The translations under genes were made by a program, and so were the position numbers. The notes beneath the pieces were generated by a model. It searched no databases. It was not told the DNA's origin and saw only the letters and a program-made list of their open reading frames with translations. Below, in pieces: positions 1-54,111 of a stretch of 64,000 nt of DNA. How positions within the stretch are numbered: the stretch's first letter is position 1; each line of letters starts with the position of its first letter. This DNA comes from Batkoa obscura (lineage: Eukaryota): contig JASVEC010000001.1 in NCBI GenBank assembly GCA_030770535.1, positions 2,108,001 through 2,172,000 on the forward strand, read 5' to 3'.

Positions 1-3000
1 CATACGGTAATGAGAACAATTCTAATGCAGAAAGAGAAATCCAAGAACATACTGATTCAAGAAATCTTCCTGAACAAAGCGCTTCTAAAAATAGAAGTAG
101 ACCTAAGGTATTTAACTGTTTTTTCAAAAAAAAAATAGGCTTTAATATTTTAACAGCCTTCTCGAACTACCCCTATTTTACAACCATTAAGGAGGCCAAC
201 AATGTCAAGAGATGATTTAAAACAATGTAGTAGTATTATTAAAGCGATGCGCAGGCACCCTGACGCAGGCCCTTTTCTTGAGCCAGTTGACTATAAAAAG
301 CTTAAGCTACTTGATTATCCAACAATTATTAAAAGGCCAATGGATATAGATACAATTGATAAAAAACTCATCGTTTGTGATTATAATAGTGTTGATGAGT
401 TTTTTTCTGATATAAAGCAGATCTTTGATAATTGTTATTTATATAATGGAAAGGATGCACCTGTATCTGTTATGGCTAGCAAGCTTGAAGCTTATTTTAA
501 CAAATATAAACGTGATTTTTCCCATGCTGTAAGTTTTAAATTTCACTTTGGAATATTTTAACTTATAAACTAGACCGAAATATTGGAACAAACTACAAAC
601 CCAGTTACCCATCAGATATCAAGAACTAAACCTAAACCCAAACCTAAACAAGTAATTATTATTTTCTTAAAAAAGAAAAAACATTTAAAAGGTAAATAGC
701 CCTTAAGGAAAGGTTCTCACATAAATGGTAATGGTTCGCATAAAGAAAATACGCGAATTTCAAAATCAAGAATGCCAGCAGAACATTACGAATTTTGTCA
801 GAATTTGATAAAAGAAATGTTCCATAAAAAACACAATGCCTATTCATTCCCTTTCCTTCAGCCAGTAGATTGGGAAGAAATGAATATACCGGATTACCCA
901 ATCATTGTAAAATATCCTATGGATTTTTCTACTGCAAAGACTAAACTTGATACTGGAAAATATAACACGGTTGATGAGTTTGGAGCAGATATTCGTTTGA
1001 TATTTACAAATTGTTATAAATATAATCCTCCATCAGGCCAAGTATATTTAATGGGGAAAAGATTAGAACAGGTTTTTGAGAAAAAATGGGAAGCTAGACG
1101 TGGTTTGTCTGCCTCTATAAATGATGGACTTAGTACTGATGAAACAACATCAGAAGATGACATTGTACCAATCAAAACTGACAGTAATTTACTTTCAATC
1201 TATTTTTATTGTATTGAAAATTCCTAGGATCACAAAGGCAAACCAAGGAAAGTACACGACCAAGTAAACCTGTTAAAAAGGATCCTAGACCTGTTAAAAG
1301 AAAGCATATAAATGAACCTGCAACGAATAAAATTAAGAATATAGTAAAAAGTGGGAAATCTAAAGAAAGTGGTACGAAAAGTAATTATGAAGAATACCCA
1401 CCTGTTACTATGGAACAAATGACTGAATTGAGTGCTGTTATAAACCAATTAGAAGGCGATCAATTAACTACAGTTGTAGATATTATTAGTCAATCAATGC
1501 CAGAAATTATTGGGGTATTTTATTTTTTTATTGAACTTCCAAATTTTAAATGTTTTAGGCAAACAAAGCTATCGAACTTGATGTTAATTCATTGGACAAT
1601 ACTACTTTAGCAAGATTATACGATGAAGTAGTTGAAAACCCAAAAAGGAAACAGGCTAAAATAGCTCATAATGTTGATAGCAGACAGAGTTCAACTCATG
1701 TACCAGCATCTTATAAAAAAACAGGTAAATTAATGACTTTGTATAAAGTAAAGTTGAGAAGTAACTTTATCTTAACAATTTGAAATTAGGTAAAGAAACG
1801 TCCCATAAAAGAGATTTAAGTTCAACAGATGAATCATCTGGTTCAGATTCAGACTCAAGCTCTGGATCAAGCACTTCAGGTAGTAGCGATTGATTTTTTT
1901 TACTTATTATAAGGAACTAAGTAGTTTAATACTTTACTTTAATTACTATGGGTGCTTAATATATTAAGTTTATACCCTAAGCAAATGATTTATTTTAATA
2001 AAAAAAATGATTACATTTTTAACTTATATTTCTTTTTAAAGATTCTTATGGAGTGTCTGAAAATCGTAAATCTAATAGGGTAAAACACTGTTTTTATTTG
2101 TTTAAAATTAAATACTCATTAATATAGCCTATTCTACCATCAGGGACAACAAAGCCTGAAAAAATATTAAAGAATGACACAATGACCCCTAAAGGTAGCT
2201 CACTAATTAATTAATTATAACATATTAAAATTGACTATAGCCAAAGCTTCTGTTAATCAGGTTAAGCCTGTTGAAAAGCAAAGAAGTAATCCACCTTTAC
2301 AAGTAATTACATGCAAATTTAATAACGAAAATGTACTTAATGATTAAAGGGAAAGAATAAATCTCCATCTAATACTCAAAAGAAGCCTGTTGCTAGTGCT
2401 AATCCTGAACCCAAATTACACAAGGATAATGACACATCTAATGTCACTCCCAAACTTCAGTCTTCTACAAAAGAAGCAGCTGATCAAGAACGAAAGGAAA
2501 GGCTGGAAAGACAATTGGCACGTGATGAGGAGATTGCTAGGTATAATTATATCAATGTTTTGGTATTTAATATTCATCCTTTTTTAGAGAAGTTGCTAAA
2601 AGGAAGAGACAAATTGAAGATGAAATTAAACAAAGGGTTGAGAAAGATAAAGAAAACAGAGTAGAACTCCAAGTAATAACATTAATATACTTTACTATTT
2701 TAAACTAACCTTAAACATCATAGATTCCACCTTTGGATTTTTTATTTCAATCTCGAGAAATCATTAAGTTTGAAGAAAGGCTTTCTCACGAATATTTTAT
2801 GGCCCATAAAAAGATAGCAGCCAATAATACTCAAACACAGCGTAAAGACCAAGCCATTATTGATAATAACCATACTATTATTCCGGCCAATTCGAATCTT
2901 ATGAATCAAAATGAAGCTCAAAATGTTGAGGCACACCATCCTAAACCTCCAGAAGACAATCCACCACCACCACCCATTGAAAATAAGGGTTTCAATCACC

Positions 3001-3083
3001 AAGGTCAGTCCCTCAGCCCTCCTTTAGCTAACCCACCTTCTCCAAAAAAAAATGATCTGGAAGAAGGTGAACTTGATGAATAA
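1..3083 (+). CDS. BDF1: BET-family double bromodomain + ET domain protein (Bdf1/BRD4-like), 5'-partial, multi-exon; short isoform stops at 1893, long isoform at 3083
   Basis: BD1 (PFLEPVD..DYPTIIKRPMD..NCYLYN, 202-530), BD2 (FPFLQPVD..PDYPIIVKYPMD..NCYKYN, 772-1180), ET domain (ELSAVINQL..IELDVNSLDNTTL) and Ser/Asp-rich tail. Six further exons in 2042-3083 splice in frame via GT-AG introns. Confidence 0.92.
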
Positions 3084-3588
3084 GTTAGCGTTAGATAATT
3101 TCATTTTATTAAATCAATGTGTAACATTTTTATATTCGCTAATAAATTTAAAATAAGTGTTTTGTATTAAATAACTTATATTTATAATTAGTATTTTAAT
3201 TTCCCTGTTTGTGCTTTTCTAAACAAGAGACCATTTCCCGTTTTAACTAATGACTTTTTCAGCATGTATTGTATAAAAATTAAAATAAACGATATAAATA
3301 AAATCAATTATATAACTAGAGTTTGATATGGTTTAGGTGAAATTTTGCTCATTCTACTTAATACAATCTGATTGTTCAACATAATCAAATTCCATTTTAG
3401 TCCTTTACTGTGCTTTTCTTACACATCATAAATCATCATTTCGCTGTCCTTATAAAAATCCAAATAAAATCGATATAAAGCCTATTATTGTAAATTGTAA
3501 AATTCTATTCAATTCGGTTAGTGTAAAATCACAATAAAGTGATTTTATTTTTAAATTATTTTGACTACCATTATAAATGAAAAACAGT

Positions 3589-4417
3589 TTAACGGTAACG
3601 ACGAAGGGAAGTAGTGTTACGACGTAACCAAGAGGCCTTACGAGAACCACCAATAGTCTTGTTGAAAGCATGACCCTTTCCAATACCACGGGCTTTCTTA
3701 CCAGTGGAGGTAAGTCCACGCATTTCACGATGTTTGTGAGTGGCTTTGGTGATCCATTGGATACGAGGATCACGACGGATAGCAGCGTGAGCTGGATCAA
3801 CTAAAATGACTTCAAAATATTTGTAGGTACCGTCTTGGTTAACCCAGTATGAGTTAAGAACACGGAGGGCACCGCAGTGACGACCAACACGTTCTTCAGC
3901 AATTGAACGGTGGGAACGTTTTGATTTAAGTTCGTTGATACCTTGGTTGACTGGTTTACCGAAAACGGCACCTTTCTTTACTTGTCTCTTACGACCACCA
4001 CGACGGACACGTACACGGTAGATAACATAACCTTGTTTGGCCTAAAATCATTAGTTTTTTGTATACTTTTTTTGTAATTATATATTTACTTTGTAACCGA
4101 GACGACGAGCCTTATCTGGGCGAGATGGACGGGAAGCACGGTGAATTACGTTGAGCTGTCTGATGTTGGCAAGGAATTAACATAAAAAAATTAAGTTAGA
4201 AACTTGAAGTGTAATGCTTAGTCATTGGAATGAAGAGATAAATCTCAACATAACCTAAGGGATAAGGACTAACCTGTATTCCCAGCATCTTACACGGAGC
4301 AAGAAGCGCATAATATCAGATTGCTTCTTTTTGCTTAATTCTTCGAGGTATTTATAGGCTATAACCTCATTTAAAACCAGAATTATATTATATTTAACAT
4401 TTGATCTTACCACCCAT
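3589..4417 (-). CDS. RPL15: 60S ribosomal protein L15 (eL15); exons 4417-4411, 4358-4274, 4159-4090, 4041-3589
   Basis: Spliced translation [73 protein letters not shown]...LRRYR*; probable 5'UTR intron ~4433-4558. Confidence 0.97.
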
Positions 4418-5839
4418 TTTATTTTAGTCCGTCTAAAATAAGAAAATTAGTCAATTACATCCATCAAAATATTTTTTGGTCTTCTATTTTTTCTGCTGTT
4501 GATAACTATTGGTTTTATTCCTTCGCTTTTATATATCTTATTAAATCAAATAACTCACCTTACAATTAGTATAAGCTGTAGGATGTGAAAAGGAAGAATA
4601 TTTCTCCCTAAGTCCTAAGTTGATATTATGTTCTGCTTATTTTTTCGTTAATTTCATGATTTATGCAAATTTTACGATTTTAGAATTCAAATTAGAATAT
4701 CAAAGTTAAACATATTGAAGTCTTTAAATATGACTAAATTATAGCTATATAATTTAGATAAATGATAATAAGACAATATTTTAATATGTAGTTCTTAACA
4801 TTCAATTATTTCAATAGTAGATATCTTTATTTCATATTTTGTTTATCTTTGCCAAATATCTCATAATTTACGAATTTTAACATAAATTTGATTATAATAT
4901 TGTTAAAATAAATTTGTTAAACTAATATTTTTTTGGTTAGTATTTTACATAGCATTTTAGCATAATTATATACTTTGTTTTAAGTCAGAATTAATGATTA
5001 TAAATTTTTAACTGAAGTTATTGGTTTTTATACTAGAGTATTATGATATAAAATTAACCGAATTAACCTTAAAGTGAAATCAAATATAATTATTTAAATA
5101 TTATTTATTTATAATAATACTTTACAATAAGACCAACTATTTTTTTATATTTAATGACATTGATAAGTAGCGGCTTTACAAAACATATTTTTGGTATATT
5201 GTTTTACTTGATTGTTAAGATCCTGAGATTATAGAAACAATATATTAACAAAAAATATAAAGATTAAAGGAAAAATAACAGCTATATTTGTAATAAAGAA
5301 CCATCGATATGTATTATAAGGTTCTTTGCGATAACTTTTTTAAAGTCATATAATACACTGCATTTAATACAAGGTGACTATAAAGATTAAAATAATTTTG
5401 GTTATTGGACATATCTTTAGAAATAAAAACTAAAACAATTTCTTGTAATTTATCTTTACTCTGATTTTATTCATTACTTGATTAGTCATTCTTTAACTAT
5501 TATATTATAACAAATTTATAAGATATTGATCCTATATATATGTGATGGGTACAGGTAGCATATATATGTTATCTTCTATAAACCTTGATGTATTTGTTTA
5601 GTTTATATACAGCATCAGGTTTAAAAGTAATTCAACTAAAAGCGCATTTGATGTATTTTATGATGATAACATAATTATTTTATTGAGTCAGGTCTCTGGA
5701 ACTTACTATCGAATGCAACTAAAAACTCAACTATTTATTTTCACTTTATATTTAAAGCAGAATATAGATGTGTTTACGATATCATTTACAGTCTGCTGCA
5801 TAAAACAAGGTAAAGCCATAATTTATTCGATCAGTATAT

Positions 5840-49550: not shown

Positions 49551-50462
49551 TCAAATAGGCAAATTAGCAATAATTGCATTGATCAAATTTTCATTTCCAT
49601 ATCTATTTCTATCACGATAGGATTTTGAAAGTTCAATATGGATGCCACCACCATTTCTATTTGCTACATTCTTTTCATGGATTCCAGCTAAATCACTAAC
49701 GCCATTCACTACAATATCATTATTTACATAATGACACGAAGGCACGTTATCTTGGTTTTTACAATAAACAACCTTTTCATTATTACCAATAGAATTCTGA
49801 ATGTCTCCAGCAACCTTTTGGACGTTTTTATAACGACCTCCAACAATCACTTGAATATCACCTCTTTCAGCAAACCCATGCCATGAAACAATAAATTTGG
49901 ATCTAATAAGGTTTGAAAGTTTAGTTGTATTAAAGACAGTGGCAGTGACATGCATGGCATTTGGATGGCAAATTTGCTTTTTAATACAATTTTCTTTGAT
50001 GGTATCAGGACATCGAGACTTGTTAAACTTTTCGTTAATAACATTCTCAATTTTTTCACAGCAAACATTTTTATTACAATTATCAGTTCGAATCTTATTA
50101 CTAGTTTCTCCATTTATACTGCAATTAAAGTTATAAAAGCTTGCATTATCAAGTCTGCTATATAACTTATTTGCAAAGTTGTCTGAGTTTAACTCAATGA
50201 AACCCCCATGAATCGCAATTGATGCCACACTCTGACTAGAGCTAGTCTTATCTTCACGGATACCAATGAATGGGATGCTTACTTGCCTGGAACTCGGATT
50301 AGCTTTGTGGACAGCAAATGGTGTGGCCTTTTCTTGCCTTGGTTTAATCTCAATGGTCTCGACTGCAGCGTTAGGATTTGCATTCATAGCATCGCCAACA
50401 CTGGTATAAAAATCAGCAGCAAAAATAGATGATAGGAATAAGAACACATTGGATAGCTTCAT
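49551..50462 (-). CDS. Secreted poly-gamma-glutamate hydrolase-like Zn peptidase (PghP/DUF867 family), copy 1
   Basis: Signal peptide MKLSNVFLFLSSIFA; IAIHGGFIE, MHVTATVF, IVSWHGF, VIVGG, LAGIHEKNVANR..GGGIHIELS..R; intronless. Confidence 0.82.
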   Translation of the reverse strand: MKLSNVFLFLSSIFAADFYTSVGDAMNANPNAAVETIEIKPRQEKATPFAVHKANPSSRQVSIPFIGIREDKTSSSQSVASIAIHGGFIELNSDNFANKLYSRLDNASFYNFNCSINGETSNKIRTDNCNKNVCCEKIENVINEKFNKSRCPDTIKENCIKKQICHPNAMHVTATVFNTTKLSNLIRSKFIVSWHGFAERGDIQVIVGGRYKNVQKVAGDIQNSIGNNEKVVYCKNQDNVPSCHYVNNDIVVNGVSDLAGIHEKNVANRNGGGIHIELSKSYRDRNRYGNENLINAIIANLPI

Positions 50463-50894
50463 CCTTAACAAAAGTTAATTCCAAAAAATGTCAATTTTCT
50501 ACTTTTTATAGTTGACATTTTAAGGTTTTTGTTTTATTGGCTATATTAGGATAGATTAACTTTGGAATTATCAACAACCTTTGAATCTATTTTTATTCTT
50601 ATACCAAAGCGTATACATAACTGCAACAAGAGCACTCCGATTTTAAGCATTATCCGCAAAATAGCTCTAAATCCCATAAAAAACACAAAATAAGTCATAA
50701 AGTAAGTGTAATGATTTAGAGTCTTGACATACTATCTAAAGGGTTTTATTTTATTAAAGTAATGTAAAATGTTAAACTTACTATTATTAGAATCAAGGGA
50801 TGTCTCAAAACCACTTTTTAAAAAAGGTAGTTTATAAAAGTCATTTTGATCTTGAATACAAAAATTTATGCAGAAAAGTTAAAGCGCTATATTT

Positions 50895-52897: not shown

Positions 52898-53728
52898 CTA
52901 ATAAGAGCTATCAATATTACGAATAGGTAAATTGTTGATGATTGCATTAATCATTTTCTCATCTCCGTCCTTATTTCTATTACGATAGGATCTAGACATT
53001 TCAATATGAATACCACCACCATTTCTATTTGCTACATTCTTTTCATGAATTCCAGCCAGTTCACCAATATCATTAACTTTACGATTGCCCTTTACATAAT
53101 AACAGTAAGGCGCATTGCCTCTATACTTGCAATAAACTACTTTGTTTTCATCACCAATAGAGTTTTGAATGTCTCCAGCAACCTTTTGGATGTTATCATA
53201 ACGACCTCCAACAATCACTTGAATATCACCTCTTTCAGCAAACCCATGCCATGAAACAATAAATTTTGACCTAATAAGGTTTGAAAATTTCTTAGAATCG
53301 AAAACAGTGGAAGTAACATGCATTGCGTTTGGATGGCAAACTTGCTTTTTTGTGCATTCTTCTTTGCTATCTTTACATTGAGTTTGATCATAGTCTTCAT
53401 TGTTGTTATCATCAATTTTTTTACAACAAATTTTTTTATAACAATTATTAGTTTCAATTCCATTGCTTATTTTCTCGTCTATACTACAATTAAAATTATA
53501 AAAAGCTGCACTATCAAGACTGTCATATAACTTCCTTGCAAAGTTATCAGAATATCTTTCAATAGTACCACCATGGATTGCAATTGATGCTACATCTGGT
53601 CGTCTAGAGTTTTTATCAACAACCTCTTTTACAGCATCAGGGTTTGCTTTCATGGCATCATTAGTGCTGGTATAGAAATCAGCTGCAAAAACAGATGATA
53701 AGAGTAAGGATAATTGAGATACTTTCAT
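52898..53728 (-). CDS. Secreted poly-gamma-glutamate hydrolase-like Zn peptidase (PghP/DUF867 family), copy 3
   Basis: Signal peptide MKVSQLSLLLSSVFA; IAIHGGTIE, MHVTSTVFD, IVSWHGF, VIVGG, LAGIHEKNVANR..GIHIEMSRSYR; intronless. Confidence 0.85.
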   Translation of the reverse strand: MKVSQLSLLLSSVFAADFYTSTNDAMKANPDAVKEVVDKNSRRPDVASIAIHGGTIERYSDNFARKLYDSLDSAAFYNFNCSIDEKISNGIETNNCYKKICCKKIDDNNNEDYDQTQCKDSKEECTKKQVCHPNAMHVTSTVFDSKKFSNLIRSKFIVSWHGFAERGDIQVIVGGRYDNIQKVAGDIQNSIGDENKVVYCKYRGNAPYCYYVKGNRKVNDIGELAGIHEKNVANRNGGGIHIEMSRSYRNRNKDGDEKMINAIINNLPIRNIDSSY

Positions 53729-54111
53729 TTTTTAATATTTTTAATTCAATAGTGGTTTATATTTCTACTTTTTATACTTGGTTTTTCGTCAACCATGATA
53801 TTGCTGGCTATGCTAGATTGGCTAAACATGTAAGCATTTAAAACCCAATGAAATCTTAATAAGATTTTACTTTAATTTTAAAAGCTAAAACTAAATGTGG
53901 CTTATGCTAACTATAATGTCAGAGAATTAGGATAGTTTTTACATAACTTTAAAAAGTTAAAAATACTTTTTACTATTATTTGTTATTCACCAGTATTTAG
54001 TCTTTTATAATAAAAATTGTGATTCAATAGATCTGATTAATTTAGTAGTATACGAGATAGTGTTTTGGTGTTAATGTTTAGCTACTAAAAGTAGTTCAAA
54101 ATTTAAGAATT

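What the first reader, a model, noticed from the sequence alone, without database searches (positions are those of the whole stretch)
1790..3083. BRD4-style long/short isoform switch and BRD4-like C-terminal motif in a fungal BET gene
Seen: exon 1790 reads to a Ser/Asp-rich end SSGSSTSGSSD* (TGA 1891-93) with AATAAA near 1997, giving a complete Bdf1-like short protein. A donor CAG|GTAGT at 1880 can instead splice over a long 162-nt intron to 2042. Six exons (2042-2079, 2128-2194, 2241-2302, 2350-2540, 2588-2672, 2724-3083) then join in frame, encoding a charged helix followed by LDFLFQSREIIKFEERL. Established, from memory: metazoan BRD4-L/BRDT/Fsh-L end in a P-TEFb-binding motif (human IDMNFQSDLLSIFEENL) that yeast Bdf1/2 lack, and BRD4 and fs(1)h make long and short isoforms. 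Inference: both the motif and the isoform switch predate the animal-fungal split.
Basis: partly seen in the sequence, partly recalled or inferred. Interest (0 to 1): 0.75.

Follow-up and report, generated by a model that had tools for sequence, protein, structure and literature searches.

The report
Fungal BET gene with BRD4-like isoforms
In an insect-infecting, early-diverging fungus, one chromatin-reader (BET) gene yields RNA for both a short yeast-like protein and a long protein whose tail carries a motif likely inherited from the same ancestor as the transcription-elongation switch of animal BRD4, which suggests that this feature, described so far as animal-specific, is likely older than animals.

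Summary
The gene is the BET (two bromodomains, ET, Ser/Asp-rich SEED stretch) gene of an entomophthoralean fungus, 471/477 identical in its N-part to a Neoconidiobolus thromboides protein. RNA contigs show both forms: the 162-nt intron 1880-2041 is spliced in 3 of 7 runs laid, and read through to the stop at 1891-93 in 6 of 7; two runs hold both. The helix-plus-motif recurs in long BETs of Zoopagomycota and Mucoromycota. It fails Pfam BRD4_CDT (0 of 12), yet a fungal-only matrix ranks the fly Fsh-L C-terminal motif first of about 350,000 windows, so homology is likely (0.85). Corrections: the motif is internal (99 residues follow); the AATAAA is at chance level and no 3' end was seen; the short form is seen as intron read-through. 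Additions: a terminal EEGEL fitting the published ARS2-binding motif in 7 of 12 long fungal BETs; a second box shared with fly Fsh-L in other fungi; the same phase-1 post-SEED intron in another fungal locus. Cdk9 binding (0.55) and common ancestry of the switch itself (0.45) are untested.

The parts
1..107 (+). upstream coding exon, open to the window edge (start codon lies outside the window)
   Evidence: joint 105>155 GT..AG (cut +2) in 4 of 4 runs; open frame
157..528 (+). exon with bromodomain 1
   Evidence: PF00439 E 1e-21; joint 528>574
574..651 (+). linker exon
   Evidence: joints; frame
700..1183 (+). exon with bromodomain 2
   Evidence: PF00439 E 3e-21; joints
1228..1514 (+). exon with first half of ET domain
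   Evidence: PF17035 E 4e-8; joints
1559..1724 (+). exon with second half of ET domain
   Evidence: PF17035 E 0.002; joints
1790..1879 (+). Ser/Asp-rich (SEED) exon shared by both forms
   Evidence: sequence; contigs
1880..2041 (+). switch intron, 162 nt, phase 1, donor CAG|GTAGTAG; spliced = long form, read through = short form
   Evidence: spliced in X5, X7, X8; unspliced contigs in X1-X4 and X5, X7
1891..1893 (+). stop codon of the short form (ends ...TSGSSD)
   Evidence: relative P0003 ends in the same residues
1997..2002 (+). AATAAA inside the switch intron; role not shown
   Evidence: present but at chance level; no poly(A) end listed
2042..2302 (+). three small linker exons (2042-2079, 2128-2194, 2241-2302) of the long form
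   Evidence: joints
2350..2672 (+). exons 2350-2540 and 2588-2672; charged, predicted helical stretch from about 2473
   Evidence: joints; 51/53 identical to P0001; helix inferred from composition
2724..2783 (+). BRD4-CTM-like motif (D/N-x-x-x-Q-x6-FE core)
   Evidence: 27/27 identical to P0001 over motif and flank; conserved in relatives; ranks fly CTM first; no PF17105 match
2784..3059 (+). low-complexity, proline-rich tail after the motif
   Evidence: sequence; 73/81 identical to P0001
3060..3074 (+). terminal EEGEL, fits the ARS2-binding motif [ED][ED]GE[ILV]
   Evidence: motif definition from PMC9402713; binding not tested
3081..3083 (+). stop codon of the long form
   Evidence: contigs run on to 3139-3233

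Best explanation
This single BET gene makes two RNA forms that differ in one 162-nt intron right after the Ser/Asp-rich stretch: read-through gives a short Bdf1/BRD4-S-like protein and splicing gives a long protein with a charged tail whose motif is likely homologous to the C-terminal motif of animal BRD4/Fsh-L and would likely contact the Cdk9 elongation kinase. Shown: gene structure, both RNA forms, conservation of the motif in two fungal phyla, purifying selection on helix and motif. Inferred: the non-consensus donor (GTAGTA) is weak and doubles as the coding end of the short protein, so splice efficiency sets the long/short ratio; the short form reads acetyl-histones and binds ET partners only; the long form adds a Cdk9-stimulating helix-motif (0.55) and, in Zoopagomycota, a terminal EEGEL that would dock on ARS2 and so on the cap-binding complex (0.5). 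The tail is probably ancestral to opisthokonts and was lost in yeasts.
For: RNA: joint 1877>2040 (GT..AG, cut +2) in X5, X7, X8, two studies; X8 holds the whole long form in one 3525-nt contig; X5 has both arms (spliced joint and unspliced contig 1850-2069); X7 has the joint and a contig 1850-1951 through the stop; unspliced contigs 1788-2072/2078 in 4 of 4 runs of a third study, one continuing with the next three introns spliced. Relatives: P0003 ends ...TSGSSD, its close relative P0004 is long. Motif in 9 of 120 BET homologues listed (leave-one-out recovers 8 of 9), plus P0121, P0122, P0284 and locus L017 (35.5 bits). Helix+motif 78/80 against linker+tail 153/175 identical to P0001, Fisher p 0.01. 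Fungal-only HMM: best 4 non-seed hits among 231 proteins are the 4 fly Fsh-L CTMs in register, E 4e-4 to 0.04 (longest window); shuffles reach the score in 0, 0, 0, 2 of 2000, motif-only shuffles 0 of 2000 each; hhalign P 6.8e-5, probability 63.5; fungal-only matrix puts the fly CTM first of about 350,000 windows, 27.7-30.0 against 13.5 for the next. A second box [LIV][KQE]NxxxWxx[LF] lies upstream in 6 long fungal BETs and 11 fly long forms and in none of the other 276 proteins (pattern drawn after seeing both). Phase-1 intron after SEED also predicted in L017; L003 has the same 12 nt at the short end. EEGE[IL]/DGEI in the last 25 residues of 7 of 12 long fungal BETs, 0 of 281 others, 0.06 expected.
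Against: PF17105 matches 0 of 12 long fungal BETs while the fly control scores 65 bits. The reciprocal fly profile finds no fungal motif, and four Entomophthorales seeds alone rank the fly motif only 8th and 9th; the shortest HMM window is not significant. The 1.8-billion-protein search returned 6 hits, all fungal, no animal; PDB searches missed the human peptide 2NNU_B. Seeds were chosen partly by eye with the animal motif in mind; the 11 fly rows are one independent locus; no vertebrate long form was in hand. The W-box HMM did not find Fsh-L and the window's protein lacks that box. In register the window has 2 of 4 basic residues at the RRRR cluster and Glu at the first Leu of the LL pair, both needed for P-TEFb activation by BRD4 (PMC4081074). 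The motif is internal in all 12 fungal proteins. The splice joint was seen only in runs whose alleles differ from the window (90-99% alike), with 28 letters on the short side in X5 and X7; unspliced contigs may include pre-mRNA; contigs are not single molecules. Five of 12 long fungal BETs lack EEGEL.
Confidence: 0.7

Rival explanations
1. The motif is homologous to the animal CTM but no longer (or never, outside Holozoa) acts on Cdk9; the fungal long tail serves another partner, for example ARS2/CBC through EEGEL, and Cdk9 is reached through the ET domain as in yeast.
For: Basic cluster and LL pair only partly kept in the window; motif internal; HEXIM and cyclin T are placed near the origin of Holozoa (10.1101/2023.02.19.529146, passages); yeast Bdf1 binds Bur1/CDK9 by its ET domain (10.1101/2025.05.12.653540, passages).
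Against: BRD4 PID binds P-TEFb but not cyclin T1 alone and stimulates it without HEXIM (PMC4081074), so neither is required; Q and E of the core are invariant in 9 of 9 aligned fungal sequences.
Confidence: 0.3
2. The long/short switch arose separately in fungi and animals: the motif is old, but cutting the protein at the SEED/tail border is an easy convergent outcome of a weak intron at a domain border.
For: No dedicated short end at the same intron in L017 (read-through gives unrelated residues); the fly short entry continues with Ala, which a GT read-through cannot give; low complexity prevents exact alignment of the junction; phase 1 is common (5 of 11 introns here).
Against: Break point directly after SEED in window, fly (P0292 against P0163) and human (short form ends GPA, PMC8579545); same 12 nt at the short end of a distant fungal locus.
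Confidence: 0.45
3. Only the long form is functional; the unspliced RNA is slow or failed splicing of an unusually long intron, or differs by strain, and is degraded.
For: Run X8 shows only the spliced form; contigs cannot tell mature RNA from pre-mRNA; no poly(A) end seen.
Against: In 4 of 4 runs of one study the unspliced path is the only one assembled while neighbouring introns are spliced; the read-through gives a clean SEED-type end shared with P0003 and resembling 27 of 120 homologue ends.
Confidence: 0.1
4. The resemblance to BRD4's motif is chance or convergence of an amphipathic helix end after a charged helix.
For: No Pfam, PDB or large-library match; reciprocal search negative; seed choice not blind.
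Against: Rank 1 of about 350,000 windows with a wide gap, motif-only shuffles 0 of 2000, second shared box in the same order, same protein family and position.
Confidence: 0.13
5. The downstream exons are a separate gene.
For: In one Mortierella assembly the tail is annotated as its own protein next to the BET (P0283 and P0022, adjacent accessions).
Against: Splice joint in 3 runs and one full-length contig; no ATG before the motif shared by window and P0001; P0283 is contained letter for letter in the fused P0284.
Confidence: 0.02

Closest known systems
Human BRD4-L / BRD4-S and BRDT
   Same: Two bromodomains, ET, SEED; short form ends a few residues after SEED; long form adds a low-complexity tail with a charged stretch and a D-x-x-x-Q...FE motif (8 of 19 residues identical, by my count, to the 2NNU_B peptide shown).
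   Different: Fungal tail is about 270 aa, the motif is internal and followed by 99 aa ending in EEGEL; no PF17105 match; RRRR and LL only partly kept; short form seen as intron read-through.
Drosophila/dipteran Fsh-L / Fsh-S
   Same: One gene, two forms by alternative splicing (PMC4053998, passages); break point after SEED; CTM is the best match of the fungal profile; upstream W-box shared with other fungal long BETs.
   Different: Fly motif is at the extreme end; no [ED][ED]GE[ILV] in 4 of 4 Fsh-L checked; W-box absent from the window's protein.
Budding-yeast Bdf1/Bdf2
   Same: The short form has the same domain set and ends in the acidic Ser-rich stretch.
   Different: Yeast has no long form (10.1101/2025.05.12.653540); no motif was found in 79 of 80 metagenome BET-like loci, many of them short or, by their intron-poor look, from other lineages.
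Plant GTE8-GTE12 BET proteins
   Same: A GTE9-like cluster was the first feature hit for one fungal tail (score 0.80), a lead only; that these proteins have a long helical C-terminal region ending in an EEGE-type motif is recalled, not tested.
   Different: One bromodomain; no plant sequence was compared here; a second tail gave no usable hit.
ARS2-binding motif of Red1, ZFC3H1, FLASH, NCBP3
   Same: Terminal EEGEL fits [ED][ED]GE[ILV]; tandem copies in P0002, P0004, P0005 as in several known binders; lies in a low-complexity tail.
   Different: Not reported for a BET protein in the passages read; binding untested; absent from Mortierellaceae and Calcarisporiella long forms.

Membership tests
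BET family | two tandem bromodomains | tested here: met
   PF00439 twice
BET family | ET domain followed by Ser/Asp/Glu-rich stretch | tested here: met
   PF17035 55 bits on P0001, split over two exons in the window; SEED exon
BRD4/BRDT/Fsh-L C-terminal motif (PF17105) | match to the Pfam model | tested here: not met
   0 of 12 long fungal BETs; fly control 65.3 bits
BRD4/BRDT/Fsh-L C-terminal motif (PF17105) | detectable sequence homology by an independent profile | tested here: met
   fungal-only profile and matrix rank the fly CTM first, shuffles 0-2 of 2000, hhalign P 6.8e-5; one direction only, reciprocal search negative
BRD4/BRDT/Fsh-L C-terminal motif (PF17105) | position at the extreme C-terminus | tested here: not met
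   30-147 residues follow in 12 of 12 fungal proteins, 0 in fly
BRD4/BRDT/Fsh-L C-terminal motif (PF17105) | polybasic cluster and LL pair needed for P-TEFb activation | tested here: inconclusive
   window: 2 of 4 basic, Glu-Ile at the LL position; most other fungi keep two hydrophobic residues there
BRD4/BRDT/Fsh-L C-terminal motif (PF17105) | binds and stimulates CDK9-cyclin | not testable with these tools
BRD4/fs(1)h-type long/short isoform pair | both forms transcribed from one gene | tested here: met
   both arms in X5 and X7
BRD4/fs(1)h-type long/short isoform pair | homologous junction (same intron) in animals and fungi | tested here: inconclusive
   same position after SEED and compatible phase; no animal gene DNA available
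BRD4/fs(1)h-type long/short isoform pair | short form ended by its own poly(A) site | tested here: inconclusive
   no poly(A) loose end listed; contigs cannot show ends; AATAAA at chance level
ARS2-binding short motif | [ED][ED]GE[ILV] in a disordered region, conserved | tested here: met
   7 of 12 long fungal BETs, 0 of 281 other proteins in the last 25 residues; disorder inferred from composition
ARS2-binding short motif | binds the ARS2 zinc-finger leg | not testable with these tools

The most novel reading that the evidence does not exclude
The BRD4-type long tail and the long/short switch after SEED are ancestral to animals and fungi (and the tail perhaps to plants' GTE8-12), and yeasts lost them. 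The fungal long BET both stimulates Cdk9 and, through a terminal EEGEL, docks on ARS2/cap-binding complex, linking acetyl-chromatin to elongation and to RNA sorting before HEXIM/7SK existed. The conserved ...S-G-S-S-x-D end of many early-diverging fungal 'Bdf1' entries is the read-through of this donor, so many of those genes have unannotated long forms.
Probability: 0.3. Interest if true: 0.88.

Novelty: new variant of a known kind. Interest (0 to 1): 0.7.

Why it matters
Papers read here describe the C-terminal motif as a feature of BRD4-L, BRDT and Fsh-L (PMC5133849, PMC4053998, passages) and the long isoform as an evolutionary acquisition seen in mammals and absent from yeast (10.1101/2025.05.12.653540, passages). 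A homologous motif and a two-form gene in early-diverging fungi would make yeast the derived, reduced case, date BET-Cdk9 coupling before HEXIM and cyclin T (placed near Holozoa in 10.1101/2023.02.19.529146), and give a simple, testable system for what the tail did first. The EEGEL end points to an unreported BET-ARS2 link. It also flags likely truncated gene models in Mucoromycota.

Tried and rejected
No whole genome is held. Pfam on single exons found no tail family. PDB searches with the P0001 helix-motif and with alignment A2 gave no BRD4 chain, only weak designed or coiled-coil hits. The large-library profile search did not reach animals or plants. The W-box HMM did not find Fsh-L; the reciprocal fly profile found nothing. 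Atlas: 0.80 for GTE9-like, under the tool's bar; no usable hit for P0283. The search for long animal BETs returned mostly fungal TAF2-bromodomain proteins and only 4 Fsh-L. No listed run is on record as RNA; I take them as RNA because GT-AG introns are removed. 7 of 8 listed runs were laid (X6 not). X7 has no cover at 1973-2031 and contig depth is lower after the intron in several runs; both would fit an intronic 3' end but the tool's depth and holes cannot carry that, so it is not used. The X2 loose end at 2030 is not poly(A). An apparent alternative acceptor at 1181/1183 was an allele difference. AATAAA at 1997 rejected as evidence. No structure or complex was folded: no partner sequence was available and a lone charged helix would tell little. 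Earlier scan notes held nothing. The 2007 paper defining the PID was not held. Supplements were not read; alignments in supplements of the BET reviews or of the pausing-evolution preprint may bear on novelty.
Full report
Gene and organism. The window (26-33% GC, introns mostly 44-51 nt) begins inside a BET gene: bromodomains in exons 157-528 and 700-1183, ET split over 1228-1514 and 1559-1724. The last exon's only hit among longer proteins is P0001, a 745-aa bromodomain protein of Neoconidiobolus thromboides; the window's spliced product is 471/477 identical to it up to the SEED stretch, so the source is that species or a sister (Entomophthorales, Zoopagomycota). P0001 is already annotated with the long tail, so the long gene model itself is on record; its motif and the second form are not described in that entry's name or domains.

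The observation. Read-through of the donor at 1880 adds G-S-S-D and stops at 1891-93; splicing of the 162-nt, phase-1 intron opens six more exons. The motif is followed by 99 residues. The AATAAA at 1997 is what this AT-rich window gives by chance (0.49 per 162 nt).

RNA. Eight runs hold the stretch, all as assembled contigs and flagged only as probable RNA; 7 were laid. In X1-X4 (one study) the other introns are removed at GT-AG ends but contigs run unspliced over 1788-2072/2078 in 4 of 4, and no 1879^2042 joint is listed (one joint and 506 pieces not shown). In X2 one 719-nt contig keeps the switch intron and removes the next three. In one search the joint is listed in 3 of 4 runs: X5 and X7 (second study; 28 letters on the short side) and X8 (third study; 39 letters; a 3525-nt contig with the whole long form). 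X5 also has an unspliced contig 1850-2069 and X7 one at 1850-1951 that passes the stop. So spliced in 3 of 7, read through in 6 of 7, both in 2. Limits: X5, X7, X8 carry alleles 90-99% alike, not the window's; contigs drop rare forms, are not single molecules and show no ends. Independent support at protein level: an unnamed relative P0003 ends ...TSGSSD and its close relative P0004 is long.

The motif in fungi. Of 120 BET homologues listed (of 1083 hits), 9 carry a charged stretch followed by [DNW]-x-x-x-Q-x6-[FY]E: Entomophthora, Massospora, Basidiobolus, Mycoemilia, Spiromyces, Calcarisporiella, Linnemannia, P0004 and P0001 (chosen by phmmer, a pattern and by eye). Leave-one-out profiles recover 8 of 9 at 14.8-54.4 bits against at most 5.5 for non-seeds; P0074 failed. 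A search of 1.8 billion representatives with their alignment returned 6 hits: 4 seeds and two more long BETs. A Mortierella assembly annotates the tail as a separate protein with the accession next to the BET, while another strain has them fused. One of 80 metagenome loci (L017) has the motif (35.5 bits); the other 79, many of them too short to hold a tail, do not. Between window and P0001 helix and motif are 78/80 identical, linker and tail 153/175 (p 0.01).

Is it the BRD4 motif? The Pfam model says no: 0 of 12 long fungal BETs, fly control 65 bits. A test from the other side says probably yes. With 4 dipteran Fsh-L proteins hidden among 231 non-seed proteins, an 11-seed fungal HMM returns their C-terminal motifs as the top 4 hits, in register (E 4e-4 to 0.04; weaker with shorter windows, not significant with the shortest). 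Shuffles reach the score in 0-2 of 2000; shuffling the motif alone, 0 of 2000. Five phmmer-found seeds plus P0031 still place the flies 2nd to 5th, though not significantly; four Entomophthorales seeds alone do not; the reciprocal profile from four near-identical flies finds nothing. hhalign gives P 6.8e-5, probability 63.5. A 12-seed substitution matrix ranks the 11 fly long forms (one locus in effect) first of about 350,000 windows, 19.7-20.7 against 14.2 with 19 columns and 27.7-30.0 against 13.5 with 31. A second box, [LIV][KQE]NxxxWxx[LF], stands upstream in 6 long fungal BETs and 11 fly forms and in none of 276 others (0.45 expected in all; pattern drawn after inspection; HMM version negative; absent from the window's protein). 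The window's motif matches the human peptide of 2NNU_B at 8 of 19 positions by my count. I put homology at 0.85. No vertebrate long form could be included.

Function. BRD4's PID needs two basic clusters and an LL pair to activate P-TEFb, and binds the complex but not cyclin T1 alone (PMC4081074, passages and section 14). In register the window has 2 of 4 basic residues and Glu-Ile at the LL position; most other fungi keep two hydrophobic residues. Cdk9 contact is thus plausible but open (0.55). The long form ends in EEGEL, which fits the ARS2-binding motif [ED][ED]GE[ILV] defined with a Red1-Ars2 structure (PMC9402713, passages). It sits in the last 25 residues of 7 of 12 long fungal BETs, all Zoopagomycota, tandem in three, and of 0 of 281 other proteins (0.06 expected). 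Binding is untested (0.5).

Is the switch ancestral? The break point follows SEED in the window, in a fly short entry against its long form (the entry may be a fragment) and in human BRD4-S, which ends GPA (PMC8579545, passages); all first differing residues have G-initial codons, as a phase-1 intron with an exon-final G would give. L017 has a predicted phase-1 intron at 4365-4456 right after SEED, but without a tidy short end (no RNA). L003, a distant fungal BET, has the same 12 bases at its short end, though its contig stops before any tail could be seen. 27 of 120 homologues end in an S-G-S-x-x-D-like string (pattern drawn after inspection), and long Mortierellaceae forms diverge from that string at the Gly. 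This suggests a dual-use donor old within fungi; identity with the animal junction is not shown (0.45).

Print. Search listings (open PubMed Central and bioRxiv only) showed no paper on a fungal BET C-terminal motif, fungal long/short BET forms or a BET-ARS2 motif. Passages read assign the motif to BRD4-L, BRDT and Fsh-L (PMC5133849; PMC4053998; PMC11908497) and call the long isoform an acquisition absent from yeast (10.1101/2025.05.12.653540). Passages of PMC10451976 and 10.64898/2026.06.10.730826 on plant BETs mention no such motif; passages of 10.1101/2023.02.19.529146 do not mention BRD4. Subscription papers and supplements were not seen.

Verdict. A real, expressed two-form BET gene and a likely BRD4-CTM homologue in early-diverging fungi, with a different end (internal motif, proline-rich spacer, EEGEL). 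Member of the BET family; not a member of PF17105 by its model; works like BRD4-L/S at the level of gene output, with the partner of the tail still to be shown.

Noticed in passing
window 49554-50474 (-) and 52901-53731 (-): Two ORFs match Pfam PF05908 poly-gamma-glutamate hydrolase (E 1e-13, 4e-16), a family I recall from phages and bacteria; possible gene transfer into this fungus.
   Followed up: no
window 3589-4360 (-): Ribosomal protein L15 gene converges on the BET gene's 3' end; some contigs bridge the two 3' regions.
   Followed up: no
window 831-1035, 2350-2540, 2724-2890: Runs X1-X4 hold two alleles side by side (up to 20 differences in 191 nt) while 1788-2078, which includes the switch intron, shows one difference; hybrid, mixed culture or constraint on the intron.
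   Followed up: partly
proteins P0123-P0158 and others: TAF2 proteins of many early-diverging fungi and basidiomycetes carry bromodomains in the same chain.
   Followed up: no
P0022, P0283, P0284: The BET tail is annotated as a separate hypothetical protein in one Mortierella assembly and fused in another; split gene models may hide long BETs elsewhere.
   Followed up: yes
P0121, P0122, P0284, L017:6100-6130: Mortierellaceae long BETs end in a conserved acidic D-E-D-D-M-x-x-[DE]-[ED] string instead of EEGEL.
   Followed up: no
window 1-198: The reading frame is open upstream of the ATG used by the P0001 annotation and resembles the N-terminal extension of relatives; the annotated start is probably too late.
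   Followed up: partly
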